From the sequence record ON286972: 64,000 nt of DNA. One strand, written 5' to 3'. Below the pieces are notes generated by a model that was not told where the DNA came from, did no database searches, and was given only the letters and a program-made list of their open reading frames with translations. Positions within the stretch are counted from its first letter, which is position 1. The number at the start of each line of letters is the position of its first letter. This DNA is from Escherichia phage A4. Shown one piece after another: positions 26,571-46,164 of this stretch. Position numbers and translations under genes: made by a program.

Positions 26571-27092
26571 ATGAACTATAATCAATTATCACAAGAAGAT
26601 ACTGATATTTGGCTAAAGAACGTAAACAATACGTTGGAACTTGTGCGACAATGTATTTCGGAAGCTGACCGTGTATCAGACGAAGCTAAAGAAAAAACAT
26701 ACAAACACTTTCACCGTAATATCTTCATGAAAATTTATGCACTTACTATGTATAATATGTACAAACCATCTGATATTTTTATTGGGTTGTATAGTGGGGC
26801 GATGTTCACATTAGGTGGGATTTTTTCAGATACTGGTCGTACATTAGAACAAAACGAAAAAGATGTTATCGTGGCAGTTGATAAGATTATGAATAAGGAA
26901 GTGGATTTCATTCTGGAAATCGTTCGTTGCTGGAATGTTTATAGCTCAAAACCATTTGACATTACACAGAAAGATATAGTAGACTATATGCGTATTTTAC
27001 GTACACATCAGATCTGTAAAGAACTATTAACCAATTTAGGGACATATGATGAAACATACAACGTGGTTGAAGATAGCCAGTGTCGTTGCTGA
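26571..27092 (+). CDS. Hypothetical protein (173 aa)
   Basis: Track ORF. Confidence 0.5.
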   Translation: MNYNQLSQEDTDIWLKNVNNTLELVRQCISEADRVSDEAKEKTYKHFHRNIFMKIYALTMYNMYKPSDIFIGLYSGAMFTLGGIFSDTGRTLEQNEKDVIVAVDKIMNKEVDFILEIVRCWNVYSSKPFDITQKDIVDYMRILRTHQICKELLTNLGTYDETYNVVEDSQCRC

Positions 27093-27528
27093 GGAAAGTA
27101 AGTGTCTTTCCCAGAAAGTAGGTTGTGTTATTGTAAAGAATAACCGAGTATTGAGTACTGGATATAACGGTACACCATCAAAGCAACCTAACTGTTGTGA
27201 TGTTAATAAACATCTCGTAAACAATGGTCAGTTTCAGGATTGGATTGATGAAGATGCAAAACACTTACATCACGAGTGGAGCAACATTCATGAGATCCAT
27301 GCGGAAATGAATGCATTACTATATAGTTCACCACAAGAACGTCAGGGTGCAACACTTTACACCACACTCCAACCGTGCTATACTTGTTCTAAGTTAATCG
27401 CTGGTAGTGGTATTTCTCGTGTAATTTACGAAAAATCGTATCCTCGCACTCCACCAGAAGCTATTAAAGTACTGGAAGATGCTGGGATTATTGTAAATTG
27501 TATCTATGATAATGGACTCAATAAATGA
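27046..27528 (+). CDS. cd: dCMP deaminase
   Basis: Zinc-binding HAEMNAL and PCYTC motifs; close parallel to recalled T4 Cd (LQIA..VS.ESKC.S.KVG.VI.KN.R..STGYNG). Confidence 0.9.
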   Translation: MMKHTTWLKIASVVAEESKCLSQKVGCVIVKNNRVLSTGYNGTPSKQPNCCDVNKHLVNNGQFQDWIDEDAKHLHHEWSNIHEIHAEMNALLYSSPQERQGATLYTTLQPCYTCSKLIAGSGISRVIYEKSYPRTPPEAIKVLEDAGIIVNCIYDNGLNK

Positions 27529-27785
27529 CAATGGTATATTTGTTTCTAGGTTGTATTGTTATATTTGTATTGTTTGCTATCTATTGTTTAGTTGATACTG
27601 ATTATTCAATGCGTGGTAATAAGAATTATCAAGTACGTTTTTCCCCGCATAATAACAAGTACTACATTGTGAATGTTAGCCACACTACTGGTCGTGAAAT
27701 GAAAGTAACTGGTAGATTTGGCTTTACAATTTACTATGATAACCAAATTGATGTTGATTATGTTGTTGAAAAGTTAAATAAATGA
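27525..27785 (+). CDS. Small membrane protein (86 aa)
   Basis: N-terminal hydrophobic helix. Confidence 0.45.
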   Translation: MTMVYLFLGCIVIFVLFAIYCLVDTDYSMRGNKNYQVRFSPHNNKYYIVNVSHTTGREMKVTGRFGFTIYYDNQIDVDYVVEKLNK

Positions 27786-27786
27786 G

Positions 27787-27812
27787 AAAAGGAGCCTATG
27801 GCTCCTTTTTTA
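27787..27812. terminator. Bidirectional terminator between convergent genes
   Basis: Hairpin ggagcc-tat-ggctcc flanked by A-run and T-run. Confidence 0.6.
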
Positions 27813-28187
27813 TTATGCTTTTTTACGTAGGATGTATTGTCCATTATGTAATTTAATTTTGTGAATCATGTACATAGTGCAAAACCCTTCAATACCTGCT
27901 TCTTCATCTTTCAATTTAATGAAGAAAGTATTATCTCTTAGGCTTTCTACAAGGCTTTCATCTGAATCTTCGAAATTCATGATATATGAATCTTTATTTC
28001 TATACACCATCTGAACATATTCATAAACCTTACCGCTTTCATCGATTAGATCATAAGTATGTGCTGAACGTTGTTTTAAAATATATAGTTTACCAAGAAT
28101 AGCTGCTCCATTAATTTTAGCACCAGTAATTTCGATACCATTAATAGAAAAAGGAAGTCTTCCGGTTAATGCAATTGGTTTACCCAT
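27813..28187 (-). CDS. Small protein paralogous to the N-terminal domain of the Ig-repeat protein
   Basis: Trimmed to the ATG with GGAG RBS; LPFSINGIEITGAKINGAAILGKLYILKQRSAHTYDLID resembles the N-terminus of 28245-30413. Confidence 0.5.
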   Translation of the reverse strand: MGKPIALTGRLPFSINGIEITGAKINGAAILGKLYILKQRSAHTYDLIDESGKVYEYVQMVYRNKDSYIMNFEDSDESLVESLRDNTFFIKLKDEEAGIEGFCTMYMIHKIKLHNGQYILRKKA

Positions 28188-28244
28188 TATTATACTTCTC
28201 CAAGTAAAGTGCATGATAATTTTCATGCACTATATTATTAAAAA

Positions 28245-30413
28245 TTAAGCACTGATTGTTACAGTTGCAGTATCAGTTTTATTGCCATTCGCAGTAGTCA
28301 CTGTAATGACTACAGTACCTTCTTCTAGAGCAGTTACTAATCCATCATCACTAATAGATACTTTAGTAGGTTCATCTGCACTATAAGTTACTGATTTGTT
28401 AGTTGCGTTAGCTGGAAGAACTTCTGGAACTAGTTGAACTGTTTTAGTACCTGATAGTGAAAGATCAGTGGCTTTAGGTGTTAAACCAACGCTGGATACT
28501 GGTACTGGAATATTAACAGTTACAGCACATTTTGCAGTTTTTGCACCATCAGTAGTTTTTACAGTGATATCAGCAGTACCGTTTGCAACAGCAGTGATTA
28601 AACCACTTGCACTAACAGTTGCGACCCCAGCAGCAGAAGTACTATAAGTTACTGCTTTGTTAGTTGCATTAGCTGGTAGTACAGTTGGTGTTAGTTGTTG
28701 AGTTGCACCAACAGATGTTAAAGTTGCTGTTGTTGGAGAAACAGAAACACTAGCTACAGGAACTGGGATTGACACAGTAATGACACCTTGACCTGTTTTA
28801 CCACTTCCATCAGCGGCAGTTGCGATAATGTTTGCAGTACCGTTAGTTAACGCAGTTACAACACCAGTACTAGCATCAACTTTCGCTACAGCAGGTGCAC
28901 TAGAAGACCATGTTACAGCTTTATTAGTTGCGTTAGCTGGAAGAACTTCAGCAGCCATTGCTTGAGTTGCGTTAACAGCAGTCAATGTTTTAGTTGCTGG
29001 AGTAACATTAATAGTTGTTACTGGAACTGGAATTGCTACAGTTACTGCACAAACTTTACTAAAGCCACCATCAGCAGTAGTAGCCGTGATATTAGCAGTG
29101 CCATTCGCTACCGCAGTGATTAAACCACTTGTACTAACGGTTGCAACACCAGCAGCAGAAGTTGCGTATGTTACTGCTTTGTTACGAGCATTAGCTGGTA
29201 GAACAGTTGCAGTTAATTGCTGTGTTGCACCAACAGAAGTTAATGAAGCGGTTGCAGGTGTTAGGTTAATACCAGTTACTGGAATCGTCACATCAATAAT
29301 TGATTGTGCGGTTTTTTCACCATCAATAGTTGTTACTGTAATAGTGGCAGTACCATTATTAACAGAAGTTACTAAACCGTCATCATCAACTTCTGCTACT
29401 GTAGGTGCAGAAGATTCATAACGAACTTCCTGATTTGATGCAGTTCTTGGTAGTACCGTTGCTGTTAATGGTTCATTTGCACCAATAGTAGTGAATGTAT
29501 ATGTTTCAGGTGTTAACGTAACACCAGTTACTGCTGTTTGAACTTTAATAGAAGAAGTATCAGTAAATGAACCATCTTCAGTTGTTGCAGTAATAGTAAC
29601 ATCACCATTGGATACACCTGTTACCAACCCAGAATCTTTATCAACTGTTGCAACGGATGGAGCAGATGAAGCCCATGTAACTTTCTTGTCTGTTGCTGAG
29701 GCCGGAGTAACTTCAGCTAACAATTGTTGAGTTGCCCCAACGTTTACAGTTGCAGTTTTAGGAGAAACGGTAACACCAGTAACACCAGTACTGACAACGA
29801 TAGAACACACATCTGTGAAATCACCATCGTGAGTTGTTACGGTTACATCAGCATTGCCATTTGCAAGTGCAGTTGCTAGACCTGTTTGAGCATCAACTTC
29901 AACGATTGTAGGAGCAGATGAAGAGTAGGTTACTGCCTTGTCTTTTGCATTAGATGGAACTACTTGGGCTGATAGTTGTTTTGTTGCACCAACTTTAAGA
30001 GATGCATCTTTGGGTGTAATTACAACACCAGTTACGGGGACATCAGCATTAACATAATCGCGTTTTACGATACGACCATTATTTAATTTAATAACACGAC
30101 CCATATAAAGCATAGTATATCCCATGCTAATACCATCATCAACATAGATCATGAATGAATTGTCTTGAACCATATTAATTGCGTCTGCTGGTTCAACAGA
30201 ATTTGGAATGTCGATACCACGAGTATCATACCAACGCATGGAAACTTTGTAATAGATATCACCATTATCATTGATGAGATCATACACGTTACCGGAACGT
30301 TGACGGTTAATATATAAAGTTTCGGTTAACACCTTACCATCGATTTTAGCGACGGAAACTTTAATACCACCAATACCAAAAGGCAATTTACCTTCACTAG
30401 ATATTGCTTTCAT
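28245..30413 (-). CDS. Virion-associated candidate with N-terminal domain plus seven Big_2 Ig-like repeats
   Basis: Seven ~85 aa repeats of VTPA..L.VGATQQL.A.VLPANATNKAVT..SSAP.VA.V...GL.TAV..G.A.IT..T.DG; late promoter upstream. Confidence 0.75.
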   Translation of the reverse strand: MKAISSEGKLPFGIGGIKVSVAKIDGKVLTETLYINRQRSGNVYDLINDNGDIYYKVSMRWYDTRGIDIPNSVEPADAINMVQDNSFMIYVDDGISMGYTMLYMGRVIKLNNGRIVKRDYVNADVPVTGVVITPKDASLKVGATKQLSAQVVPSNAKDKAVTYSSSAPTIVEVDAQTGLATALANGNADVTVTTHDGDFTDVCSIVVSTGVTGVTVSPKTATVNVGATQQLLAEVTPASATDKKVTWASSAPSVATVDKDSGLVTGVSNGDVTITATTEDGSFTDTSSIKVQTAVTGVTLTPETYTFTTIGANEPLTATVLPRTASNQEVRYESSAPTVAEVDDDGLVTSVNNGTATITVTTIDGEKTAQSIIDVTIPVTGINLTPATASLTSVGATQQLTATVLPANARNKAVTYATSAAGVATVSTSGLITAVANGTANITATTADGGFSKVCAVTVAIPVPVTTINVTPATKTLTAVNATQAMAAEVLPANATNKAVTWSSSAPAVAKVDASTGVVTALTNGTANIIATAADGSGKTGQGVITVSIPVPVASVSVSPTTATLTSVGATQQLTPTVLPANATNKAVTYSTSAAGVATVSASGLITAVANGTADITVKTTDGAKTAKCAVTVNIPVPVSSVGLTPKATDLSLSGTKTVQLVPEVLPANATNKSVTYSADEPTKVSISDDGLVTALEEGTVVITVTTANGNKTDTATVTISA
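28250..30050 (-). repeat. Tandem ~260 bp coding repeats (Big_2 domain units)
   Basis: Recurring gttactgctttgttagttgcattagctgg-like segments at ~260 bp periodicity. Confidence 0.6.
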
Positions 30414-30449
30414 ATACTTTCCTTTATAAATTGTATTGTAGTGTTATAT

Positions 30450-30457
30450 TATTTATA
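30450..30457 (-). promoter_or_regulatory. T4-type late promoter TATAAATA
   Basis: Plus-strand TATTTATA (TATAAATA on minus) about 37 nt upstream of the minus-strand start at 30413. Confidence 0.55.
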
Positions 30458-30481
30458 TTATACCAAAAGTATTTTAGGATT

Positions 30482-30504
30482 AAAAAAGGAGTCCGAAGAC
30501 TCCT
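30482..30504 (-). terminator. Rho-independent terminator (minus strand)
   Basis: Hairpin ggagtc-cgaa-gactcc with T-run on the minus strand, just downstream of the gene ending at 30517. Confidence 0.5.
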
Positions 30505-30516
30505 TAAAATATAAAG

Positions 30517-31020
30517 TTATTGGAAACGAGCATACGGTGGAAATCTGGTTTGGTCAGGCCAATCTTTCGGAGAGAAGTAAGCAGTGAATTGCATTTTATC
30601 ATTTGAATAAAGAACAAAATCATCTGGCTTTATTATAACTTTAGACAACGAATTTGGCTCCACGTTCGTTCTTCTGAAAATTATTTCACCATTATGTAAT
30701 TTTATTTTATTACTTTGATATTGAATACCAAAACCATACTTATTATTAATAGCATCAGCTTCTTTTATGCAAAATGTATTATTTGCTAAAGATTTAGCAA
30801 TTTCAGCATCGTCATCATCATACTACAATGTTGATTTATCTTTATTTCTACCTGTGATTTTTATCTTGAAATTTTCAGATATTAAATCATATGAATCGAA
30901 TGTTCTTTGTTTTATAACATACAATTCTTTAACAAATACTTGCCCTTCTATCTTTGCAGCAGTAACCTGCAATCCACCTATAACAAATGGAAATTGATCT
31001 AAGCCAGCTATTGGTTTCAT
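30517..31020 (-). pseudogene. Third N-domain paralog interrupted by a single in-frame TAG (nonsense allele or read-through gene)
   Basis: Track ORF 30823-31020 ends at TAG; the same frame continues 101 codons to TAA at 30517-30519 and stays similar to paralog 27813-28187. Confidence 0.45.
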
Positions 31021-31183: not shown

Positions 31184-31218
31184 TATTTATGTTCCTTAAC
31201 TCAAATCCGAGGTAATCA

Positions 31219-31824
31219 ATGAAACGAATCTTGAAAGAGATTGTACAAACCGTTGTTTTAATCGCTGCATTAAACTTTCCGGCAGCGGCAGAAGTTTCAA
31301 AAAAATCATCAGTTTTTCTATTAAATGAACATGTTGTGTCAATTGATGGTGAACTAAATGATGAAACTGTACAAGAAGTGAAGAAGTTGTGGAAAGAAAC
31401 AAGATTTAAAATTTTAACAATTACATCACCTGGTGGAGATTTTGATGCAGGATTAGATTTGGGATTGTTTGTGGCTGCTAAAAAGTTAACTGTTTATGTC
31501 CCAAAGCAATGTAATTCGTCTTGTAGTCTGGTTTTTTTCTCTGCATCATCTGAACGTAGGGATATGAGTGATACCGCAGTGATGGGTTTACATAACATCT
31601 CACTAGTATCTACGAATGGTGCAGATCCAGATACGACATTCGTTTCAGTTAGACAGTTGATGGAGTTTACACATCAAGTCTCAACTAAAGTTGGGTATCT
31701 TTTTACACTGTACGCACATAACGGTATCCCCGCTGAAACACTCATTGATATCAGTACTAAACATGGTGAGGATATCGTTGTCTTACGAAGAACAGATCTA
31801 GTTAAATGGGGAATTATTCAATAA
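31219..31824 (+). CDS. Secreted ClpP/NfeD-like serine peptidase-fold protein
   Basis: N-terminal signal-like segment, then ILTITSPGGDFDAG resembling the ClpP-class SPGG motif. Confidence 0.45.
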   Translation: MKRILKEIVQTVVLIAALNFPAAAEVSKKSSVFLLNEHVVSIDGELNDETVQEVKKLWKETRFKILTITSPGGDFDAGLDLGLFVAAKKLTVYVPKQCNSSCSLVFFSASSERRDMSDTAVMGLHNISLVSTNGADPDTTFVSVRQLMEFTHQVSTKVGYLFTLYAHNGIPAETLIDISTKHGEDIVVLRRTDLVKWGIIQ

Positions 31825-46157: not shown

Positions 46158-46164
46158 TACTATT

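What the first reader, a model, noticed from the sequence alone, without database searches (positions are those of the whole stretch)
27813..31020. Minus-strand late-promoter island encoding an Ig-repeat protein and two N-domain paralogs
Three consecutive minus-strand genes interrupt an otherwise + strand genome. They are bounded by terminators (27787-27812, 30482-30504) and served by a TATAAATA late promoter (30450-30457). The central 722 aa protein has a ~120 aa N-terminal domain followed by seven Big_2 Ig-like repeats. The two flanking small genes encode paralogs of that N-terminal domain alone. The island is more GC-rich and nearly lacks the AGTACT motif (one site in about 3.2 kb), consistent with recent horizontal acquisition. 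A Hoc-like virion decoration or adhesin is plausible, with the small paralogs possibly competing for the same attachment site.
Basis: partly seen in the sequence, partly recalled or inferred. Interest (0 to 1): 0.6.

Follow-up and report, generated by a model that had tools for sequence, protein, structure and literature searches.

The report
Jumbo-phage virion Ig-fibre gene cluster
This is the conserved late-gene slot of RaK2-like jumbo phages, holding a virion surface protein (a clade-specific anchor domain plus seven Ig-like domains), one intact anchor-only copy and one dead copy; it is an ordinary kind of phage decoration gene and not a recent foreign insertion.

Summary
The sequence features are largely real. 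They comprise a minus-strand unit in a plus-strand window, two flanking terminators, a TATAAATA motif 36 nt before the main gene, and a 722-aa protein with a ~122-aa N-domain plus seven Big_2 repeats. Three details are wrong. The upstream "small gene" is a 167-codon pseudogene with an in-frame TAG and a truncated Big_2. The downstream gene starts at 28187 (124 aa). AGTACT occurs three times, not once.

The horizontal-acquisition reading fails. The same opposite-strand gene sits beside dCMP deaminase in every RaK2-like jumbo phage examined. The extra GC lies only in codon positions 1 and 2.

Homologues were found in purified virions by mass spectrometry: CBB_112, and phAPEC6 gp347 at 75% coverage. 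The N-domain has no Pfam family and no solved structural match. It is predicted as a disordered conserved arm plus an all-beta body. It is fused to nothing, to 1-9 Big_2 domains, or to other modules.

The best reading is a virion anchor carrying a variable display module. Capsid versus tail location, and any competition between paralogs, remain untested. This is a new member of a known kind, of modest interest.

The parts
27785..27811 (.). Hairpin terminator that reads as a terminator on both strands. It ends the minus-strand unit and the convergent + strand gene at 27525-27785.
   Evidence: 12-bp stem, T-runs on both strands; -14.1 kcal/mol, z -4.3
27813..28187 (-). g1: intact N-domain-only paralog, 124 aa (MGKPIALTGRLPF...).
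   Evidence: called as 124 aa in three public assemblies. N-domain HMM E 9e-52, from a profile whose alignment includes g1 itself. AF2 pLDDT 81.5, pTM 0.74. pN/pS 0.31 against a 95.6%-identical relative, from 9 substitutions.
28208..28231 (-). Stable hairpin between g2 and g1 without a good U-tract. Possibly a partial terminator or an mRNA 3' stabiliser (inferred).
   Evidence: (-12.4 kcal/mol, z -4.5)
28245..30413 (-). g2: 722-aa protein made of the N-domain plus seven Big_2 domains
   Evidence: The exact protein occurs in 5 metagenomic contigs. pN/pS is 0.07 for the N-domain and 0.18 for the Big_2 part.
30048..30413 (-). N-terminal domain of g2 (aa 1-122): a conserved arm predicted disordered, then an all-beta body. 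Proposed virion anchor.
   Evidence: pLDDT 85-93 for aa 20-110; aa 1-12 below 50. PHROG 33171 'virion structural protein'. No Pfam hit.
28248..30041 (-). Seven Big_2 Ig-like repeats (aa 125-722). Repeat 6 resembles repeat 4 (71%) and is missing from UE-S1.
30450..30457 (-). T4-type late-promoter motif TATAAATA, 36 nt upstream of the g2 start codon
   Evidence: Conserved in the L018 relative. The CBB paper predicts ATAAATA as the late-promoter consensus of this clade.
30486..30505 (-). Intrinsic terminator with a UUCG loop, downstream of g3 and upstream of the g2 promoter. It is also the breakpoint at which relative L018 diverges.
   Evidence: (-11.7 kcal/mol)
30517..31020 (-). g3: pseudogene of a third paralog. 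It has 167 codons: the N-domain plus a truncated Big_2.
   Evidence: Absent from UE-S1 and ph0011.
30823..30825 (-). In-frame TAG at codon 66 of g3
   Evidence: Present in independent assemblies L014 and L015. L015 carries a second in-frame TAG further downstream. No other TAG-joined ORF pair exists in the window.
31184..31190 (-). Second late-promoter-like motif (C)ATAAATA, about 165 nt upstream of g3
   Evidence: ATAAATA occurs only 9 times in the window on both strands, two of them in the island

Best explanation
The island is the conserved late-gene slot of RaK2-like jumbo myoviruses (the window is an Asteriusvirus-like coliphage). It is transcribed antisense to the surrounding early and middle genes from a T4-type late promoter and is insulated by terminators. 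Its product family is a virion-associated surface protein. A clade-specific ~120-aa N-terminal domain attaches the protein to the particle. A variable C-terminal module is displayed outward; here it is seven Big_2 Ig-like domains, roughly a 25-nm flexible fibre. That module probably mediates weak, reversible adhesion to host-surface or environmental glycans. g1 is an intact, co-transcribed 'bare anchor' paralog. g3 is a dead third paralog. Shown here or in cited papers: the anatomy, the synteny, the presence of homologues in virions, and the pseudogene status of g3. Inferred: the anchor role of the N-domain, the site of attachment (capsid hexamer centre or cement position versus tail), the adhesive function, and late timing.
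For: Synteny: the same opposite-strand gene lies beside dCMP deaminase in UE-S1, ph0011, PBECO4, 121Q, phAPEC6, RaK2, CBB, GAP32, BF, Munch, XbC2 and fHe-Yen9-04. In EJP2 one of the two copies sits there as well. It also recurs in four further metagenomic slot loci, L019-L022. Virion presence: CBB_112 gave 4 unique peptides and 24.3% coverage (PMC5259590). phAPEC6 gp347 is an N-domain-only protein of 14.1 kDa; it gave 8 peptides and 75.2% coverage, the highest of the 62 virion proteins (PMC7247149). Modularity: the N-domain occurs alone, with 1-9 Big_2 domains, or with unrelated C-terminal modules of 220-530 aa. Structure: AF2 models are confident (pLDDT 81-86) and show a disordered but highly conserved N-terminal arm plus a beta-rich body. 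Selection: pN/pS is 0.07 for the N-domain and 0.18 for Big_2. Expression signals. Open positions on the particle: the 121Q and phAPEC6 capsids carry unassigned decoration densities at each hexamer centre and along ridges (PMC5646251; PMC7247149).
Confidence: 0.62

Rival explanations
1. One reading: a recently acquired foreign island, marked by higher GC and a lack of AGTACT.
For: GC is 36.4% against 34.9%. There are 3 AGTACT sites against 9.2 expected, and the longest AGTACT-free gap in the window (1966 bp) lies partly in the island.
Against: The slot and its orientation are conserved across all the RaK2-like genera examined. The GC excess is only in codon positions 1 and 2 of the Ala/Thr/Val/Gly-rich Big_2 part, and GC3 there is 13%, below every other long ORF. 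The N-domain genes have 30-35% GC. The three N-domains are only 32-42% identical to each other, so the duplications are old.
Confidence: 0.04
2. The N-domain-only paralog g1 competes with, or co-assembles with, g2 at the same virion sites and so sets the density of Ig fibres.
For: g1 is intact, has its own ribosome-binding site and shares the g2 transcription unit. It is intact in the L018 relative with pN/pS 0.31. Pairs of an N-only gene and an N-fused gene recur in the same slot in L019, L020/L021 and EJP2. An N-only protein is a virion component detected at high coverage in phAPEC6.
Against: g1 carries internal deletions in UE-S1 and ph0011, which keep g2. It is therefore dispensable. The g1 and g2 N-domains are only 34% identical and could bind different sites. 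The pN/pS estimate rests on 9 substitutions.
Confidence: 0.2
3. The protein decorates the tail (collar, sheath rings or baseplate region) rather than the capsid.
For: phAPEC6 has unassigned elongated decoration proteins and fibre bases at the collar and at three rings along the sheath. Public records call the homologues 'major tail protein'.
Against: The 'major tail protein' label comes only from Big_2 similarity. The tail PHROGs align to the Big_2 part, and the N-domain hits only 'virion structural protein' families. The very high mass-spectrometry coverage of gp347 fits a high-copy capsid site better, although coverage is a weak proxy for abundance.
Confidence: 0.25
4. g3 is a functional gene expressed by amber suppression or programmed readthrough.
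For: The frame stays open for 101 codons after the TAG. The TAG is present in independent assemblies. TAG is the rarest stop, ending 6 of 100 ORFs.
Against: One assembly (L015) has a second in-frame TAG (from TAT) and an H-to-N change downstream. The Big_2 domain is truncated. g3 is deleted in UE-S1 and ph0011. It is the only TAG-joined ORF pair in the window. No tRNA gene lies in the window.
Confidence: 0.04

Closest known systems
CBB_112, RaK2 gp496, GAP32_111 and Serratia phage BF gp105 ('structural protein with Ig domain', often mislabelled 'major tail protein')
   Same: Same N-domain family (PHROG 10468/33171), same genomic slot and orientation, Big_2 fused at the C-terminus. CBB_112 was detected in virions.
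   Different: Those proteins have 1-2 Big_2 domains, whereas this one has 7. Its N-domain is only 26-28% identical to theirs. Here it is flanked by two extra paralogs.
phAPEC6 gp347, PBECO4 gp098 and 121Q gp471 (125-aa virion structural protein)
   Same: Same slot, same N-domain (35-42% identity), same genus-level group (Asteriusvirus). Shown to be in the virion by mass spectrometry.
   Different: No Ig domains at all. They resemble g1 and g3 in architecture rather than g2.
UE-S1 UES1_422 (633 aa) and ph0011 WAE77065 (890 aa)
   Same: Orthologues of g2. The N-domain is 90-92% identical and the repeats correspond one to one.
   Different: 6 and 9 Big_2 repeats instead of 7. In both, g1 is internally deleted and g3 is absent.
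T4 Hoc and T5 pb10 (capsid decoration proteins with Ig-like domains)
   Same: General design: one capsid-binding module plus outward-facing Ig-like domains. They are non-essential and are thought to be adhesive.
   Different: No sequence or fold similarity in the anchor. Hoc anchors through its C-terminal domain, whereas here the anchor is N-terminal. The binding site here is unknown.

Membership tests
Big_2 (PF02368) bacterial Ig-like domain proteins | Pfam Big_2 match above the gathering score | tested here: met
   385.5 bits against a cut-off of 22.8, with 7 stretches in g2. g3 keeps only half of one such domain.
RaK2-like 'virion structural protein' N-domain family (PHROG 33171 / 10468) | Profile match of the ~120-aa N-domain | tested here: met
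   PHROG E-values: g1 2.8e-18 and 2.7e-16; g2 1.6e-13; g3 1.1e-16. The N-domain HMM finds it only in g1, g2 and g3 within the window.
RaK2-like 'virion structural protein' N-domain family (PHROG 33171 / 10468) | Conserved slot: opposite strand, next to dCMP deaminase and a ~86-aa gene | tested here: met
RaK2-like 'virion structural protein' N-domain family (PHROG 33171 / 10468) | Physical presence in the virion | not testable with these tools
   Shown only for the homologues CBB_112 and phAPEC6 gp347
T4 Hoc-type decoration protein | Homology to Hoc; Ig-like capsid-binding domain at the C-terminus | tested here: not met
T4 Hoc-type decoration protein | Binds the centre of major-capsid-protein hexamers | not testable with these tools
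   121Q and phAPEC6 have an unassigned hexamer-centre density. No assignment has been made.
T5 pb10-type decoration protein | Fold similarity of the N-terminal capsid-binding domain | tested here: not met
Phage major tail (tube) protein with a C-terminal Big_2 domain (lambda gpV type; the RefSeq label of the homologues) | N-terminal tail-tube fold or family match | tested here: not met
   The tail-protein PHROGs align to the Big_2 region, with one weak exception on g3 (phrog_3575, E 7e-4, aa 39-116). The N-domain otherwise matches only 'virion structural protein' families. No tube-protein match appears in PDB.
T4-type late transcription unit | TATAAATA element at a suitable distance upstream of the gene | tested here: met
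   30450-30457 (-), 36 nt before the ATG. It is one of 4 copies in 64 kb against 10.95 expected.
T4-type late transcription unit | Late timing and dependence on a phage sigma factor | not testable with these tools
   The phAPEC6 paper reports a phage-encoded sigma factor. No transcript data are available.

The most novel reading that the evidence does not exclude
The ~120-aa N-domain is a previously undescribed, clade-specific virion-docking fold: a conserved N-terminal arm plus a beta-rich body whose only weak structural matches are SH3/Tudor-like barrels. It would account for one of the unassigned decoration densities on T=28 Asteriusvirus capsids, for example the hexamer-centre 'fibre-anchoring protein' of 121Q and phAPEC6. 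The conserved slot would then be a plug-in site where phages swap display modules (none, 1-9 Big_2 domains, or other domains). Bare-anchor paralogs such as g1 would share the sites and tune how many fibres the particle carries.
Probability: 0.2. Interest if true: 0.55.

Novelty: new member of a known kind. Interest (0 to 1): 0.3.

Why it matters
Ig-like decoration proteins affect how phages stick to hosts and mucus, and they are used as display scaffolds. In RaK2-like jumbo phages the capsid and tail decoration densities seen by cryo-EM have not been assigned to genes. This gene family has the highest mass-spectrometry coverage in the phAPEC6 virion proteome and has no known fold, so it is a concrete candidate. 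The slot shows quick turnover: the Ig repeat number is 6, 7 or 9, paralogs are gained and lost, and one relative that is 95.6% identical across the flanking region carries at least 10 kb of extra Ig-like genes. That turnover makes it a marker of surface diversification. The locus itself is otherwise an expected feature of this phage group.

Tried and rejected
1. The exhaustive representative search was wasted by my own design. The profile included a Big_2 domain, so 125,372 Big_2 proteins swamped the list. Only P0120 (97% identical, 722 aa) and P0137 (820 aa, N-domain plus 8 Big_2) were useful.

2. The first word-indexed homologue search with the g2 N-domain found only 2 proteins. A 14-sequence profile was needed to reach 18.

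3. IMG/VR scans found nothing.

5. Genome-wide TAG recoding was considered and rejected. No tRNA gene is present in the window.

6. I considered that this protein forms the long 'hairs' of CBB and phAPEC6. I rejected it because their homologues have one or no Ig domain.

7. I considered that L018 is a chimeric assembly. Its extra region carries the clade's AGTACT signature at 1.6 per kb, so it is probably genuine, but this is not proven.

8. A literature search for AGTACT in phages found nothing relevant.
Full report
WHAT THE WINDOW IS. Megablast places the window among the RaK2-like jumbo coliphages of the genus Asteriusvirus. The nearest isolate is Escherichia phage UE-S1, at about 82% nucleotide identity over the island. 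The exact 722-aa protein and its neighbours occur in five metagenomic contigs. The window is therefore a real, repeatedly assembled phage genome.

CHECK OF THE OBSERVATION: WHAT HOLDS.
- Of 100 non-overlapping ORFs of at least 70 aa, 96 are on the + strand. The island genes are the only substantial minus-strand ORFs.
- Hairpin terminators lie at 27785-27811 (a terminator on both strands) and at 30486-30505.
- TATAAATA lies at 30450-30457 on the minus strand, 36 nt before the ATG of the large gene. The motif occurs only four times in 64 kb against about 11 expected by chance. The shorter clade consensus ATAAATA occurs nine times, two of them in the island.
- The 722-aa protein has seven Big_2 domains after a ~122-aa N-terminal domain that has no Pfam match.
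- Both flanking ORFs carry the same N-domain, at 32-42% pairwise identity.

CHECK OF THE OBSERVATION: THREE CORRECTIONS.
- The upstream 'gene' is not a 65-aa ORF. It is a 167-codon frame (30517-31020) interrupted by an in-frame TAG at 30823-30825. The frame continues through the rest of the N-domain into half of a Big_2 domain.
- The downstream gene starts at 28187 and gives 124 aa beginning MGKPIA, the family consensus. Gene callers on public assemblies agree, and a stable hairpin covers the upstream ATG.
- AGTACT occurs three times in the island, not once. That is a mild depletion: 9.2 expected, P = 0.018, and 5% of equal-sized windows do as well.

THE UPSTREAM COPY (g3) IS A PSEUDOGENE.
- The TAG is present in two independent assemblies. 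One of them (L015) has a second in-frame stop (TAT to TAG) and a His-to-Asn change. Both lie downstream of the first stop, and they are the only two differences in 831 aligned bases.
- The Big_2 part of g3 is truncated just before the terminator.
- UE-S1 keeps only about the last 87 nt of g3, and ph0011 lacks it completely.
- When TAG is read as sense, g3 is the only place in the window where two pieces of at least 60 codons merge. There is therefore no sign of stop-codon recoding. No tRNA gene lies in the window.

THE ISLAND IS NOT A RECENT ACQUISITION.
- The slot was inspected in thirteen isolate genomes. They cover Asteriusvirus, Alcyoneusvirus (RaK2), Mimasvirus (CBB, GAP32, XbC2), Eneladusvirus (BF, fHe-Yen9-04) and the unclassified phage Munch.
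- In all of them an N-domain gene lies on the opposite strand beside dCMP deaminase and a small (~85-aa) gene. In EJP2 this holds for one of the two copies. Four further metagenomic slot loci, L019-L022, show the same arrangement.
- The island's slightly higher GC (36.4% against 34.9%) comes only from the Big_2 part (40.7%). The small genes have 30-31% GC and the g2 N-domain 35%.
- Within the Big_2 part, GC at codon positions 1, 2 and 3 is 53%, 56% and 13%. The genome means are 46%, 33% and 28%. The excess reflects Ala/Thr/Val/Gly-rich composition. Synonymous sites are more AT-rich than in any other long ORF of the window.
- The three N-domains are as divergent from each other as from those of other genera. 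The duplications are therefore old.

WHAT THE PROTEIN FAMILY IS.
- The N-domain matches two PHROG families, 33171 and 10468, both annotated 'virion structural protein'.
- Two published virion proteomes contain homologues. CBB_112 (N-domain plus one Big_2) gave 4 unique peptides and 24.3% coverage (PMC5259590). phAPEC6 gp347 is the 125-aa N-domain-only protein in the same slot. It gave 8 peptides and 75.2% coverage, the highest of all 62 virion proteins and just above the major head protein at 74.9% (PMC7247149).
- Cryo-EM of phAPEC6 and 121Q shows unassigned capsid decoration proteins. One forms ridges in as many copies as the major capsid protein. Another is a 'fibre-anchoring' protein at each hexamer centre. 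There are also unassigned decorations on the tail.
- The searches made here turned up no paper that assigns these densities to genes.

STRUCTURE.
- AlphaFold2 with a 19-sequence alignment gives confident models. g2 residues 1-210 have mean pLDDT 85.5. g1 has pLDDT 81.5 and pTM 0.74.
- The first 12-16 residues are among the most conserved in the family (MGKPIAGRNKSPFG) but are predicted disordered. A ~105-residue beta-rich body follows, and then the first Big_2 domain.
- Among predicted viral structures, the fold appears only in RaK2-like homologues, in Agrobacterium jumbo phage Atu_ph07, and in uncultured phage proteins. All are uncharacterised.
- A conserved flexible arm plus a compact body would suit a docking module, but that is an inference.

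MODULARITY AND TURNOVER.
- The N-domain occurs alone in PBECO4-type phages and in L022.
- It occurs with one or two Big_2 domains in RaK2, CBB, GAP32, BF, Munch and XbC2.
- It occurs with six, seven, eight or nine Big_2 domains in UE-S1, the window, P0137 and ph0011.
- It occurs with unrelated C-terminal modules of about 220-530 aa in fHe-Yen9-04 g095c, L019 and L020.
- Repeats of g2 correspond one to one with those of UE-S1, except that window repeat 6 has no partner there. Repeat 6 is 71% identical to repeat 4.
- Tandem pairs of an N-only gene and an N-fused gene in this slot recur in L019 and L020/L021. EJP2 has such a pair separated by a protease gene. fHe-Yen9-04 has a pair of two differently fused genes.
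- One relative is 95.6% identical across 12.3 kb (L018, from ERR10789687). It diverges exactly at the terminator at 30505. In place of g3 it carries at least 10 kb of same-strand genes for large Ig-like-repeat proteins of 669, 84, 714, 836 and at least 1872 aa. These lack the N-domain. The one tested, the 836-aa protein, has no match in 50,697 phage records.

STATUS OF g1. g1 is intact here and in L018. pN/pS is 0.31, from nine substitutions. For comparison, pN/pS is 0.07 for the g2 N-domain and 0.18 for the Big_2 part. g1 has internal deletions in UE-S1 and ph0011. It is probably expressed with g2, because no canonical terminator separates them, only a hairpin with a poor U-tract. It is dispensable in close relatives.

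MECHANISM PROPOSED. The unit is a late transcript running from the TATAAATA promoter to the terminator at 27785-27811 that is shared with the convergent + strand gene. g2 attaches to the particle through its N-domain and projects seven Ig-like domains. At the usual ~4 nm per Ig domain this gives roughly 25-30 nm (my estimate from general knowledge). These domains act as a weak glycan-binding fibre, as proposed for phage Ig-like domains in general (Fraser et al. 2006, cited in PMC5259590). g1 would occupy sites as a bare anchor. Confidence by step:
- Virion association: well supported.
- Anchor role of the N-domain: moderately supported.
- Capsid as the location: favoured only weakly.
- Adhesion and competition between paralogs: untested.

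COMPARISON WITH KNOWN SYSTEMS. The protein works like Hoc of T4 or pb10 of T5, that is, an anchor plus Ig-like display domains. It is not a member of either family. The anchor is N-terminal, is not an Ig domain, and has no detectable sequence or fold relationship to them. The 'major tail protein' label on several homologues is an artefact of Big_2 similarity. The long hairs described on CBB and phAPEC6 cannot be this protein, because their versions have one or no Ig domain.

VERDICT. The decoration or adhesin idea is supported by evidence from homologues. The horizontal-transfer idea is refuted. The competition idea remains open for g1 and is moot for g3. This is a new member, with an unusually long Ig array and leftover paralogs, of a family already annotated in RaK2-like phages. 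Its anchor domain remains structurally and functionally undescribed.

Noticed in passing
whole window 1-64000; also loci L001-L013 and L018: AGTACT occurs 178 times against 17.7 +/- 4.3 expected, about one site per 360 bp. Its flanks are biased toward the 8-mer palindrome CAGTACTG (C before the motif in 57% of sites, G after it in 53%). The enrichment, 1.3-4.3 sites per kb, is shared by every RaK2-like phage locus fetched, including RaK2, CBB, GAP32, BF, XbC2, EJP2 and Munch. A literature search found no explanation.
   Followed up: partly
L018:1-9903 (contig ERR10789687_1861): A relative 95.6% identical across 12.3 kb diverges exactly at the terminator that corresponds to window position 30505. 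It carries at least 10 kb of same-strand genes for large Ig-like-repeat proteins (669, 84, 714, 836 and at least 1872 aa). These lack the N-domain, and the 836-aa protein has no tblastn match in 50,697 phage records. The region carries the clade's AGTACT signature at 1.6 per kb, so it is probably not a chimera.
   Followed up: partly
window 28248-30038 (-): GC3 of the Big_2 region is 13.4%. That is lower than in any of the 42 + strand ORFs of at least 150 aa (range 18.6-38.8%, mean 28%). It suggests strong A/T-ending codon bias in this late gene, or a strand-specific mutational bias.
   Followed up: no
window, both strands: TATAAATA is under-represented, with 4 copies against 10.95 +/- 3.3 expected. 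This is consistent with avoidance of spurious late promoters. The other copies are at 46164 (+), 47072 (-) and 49377 (+).
   Followed up: no
L003:8922-9164 (-) (phage ph0011): The g1 remnant in ph0011 is an 81-codon stop-free stretch. It keeps the conserved N-terminal arm (profile positions 4-19) and the C-terminal third (positions 79-123) of the N-domain, as if by an in-frame internal deletion.
   Followed up: no
L020:1-313, L021:1-313, L022:238-684: In metagenomic RaK2-like relatives an Acb1 (anti-CBASS, PF23474) gene lies a few kb from the slot, beyond the NAMPT and NMN-adenylyltransferase/NUDIX genes.
   Followed up: no
window 31219-31824 (+) and 27046-27528 (+): The genes flanking the island are a 201-aa protease-family protein (PHROG 26024, no Pfam hit; its 121Q counterpart is annotated 'ClpP-like') and a dCMP deaminase. 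The 173-aa gene at 26571-27092 matches PHROG 19307 'virion structural protein', although it lies in an early-looking + strand block.
   Followed up: no
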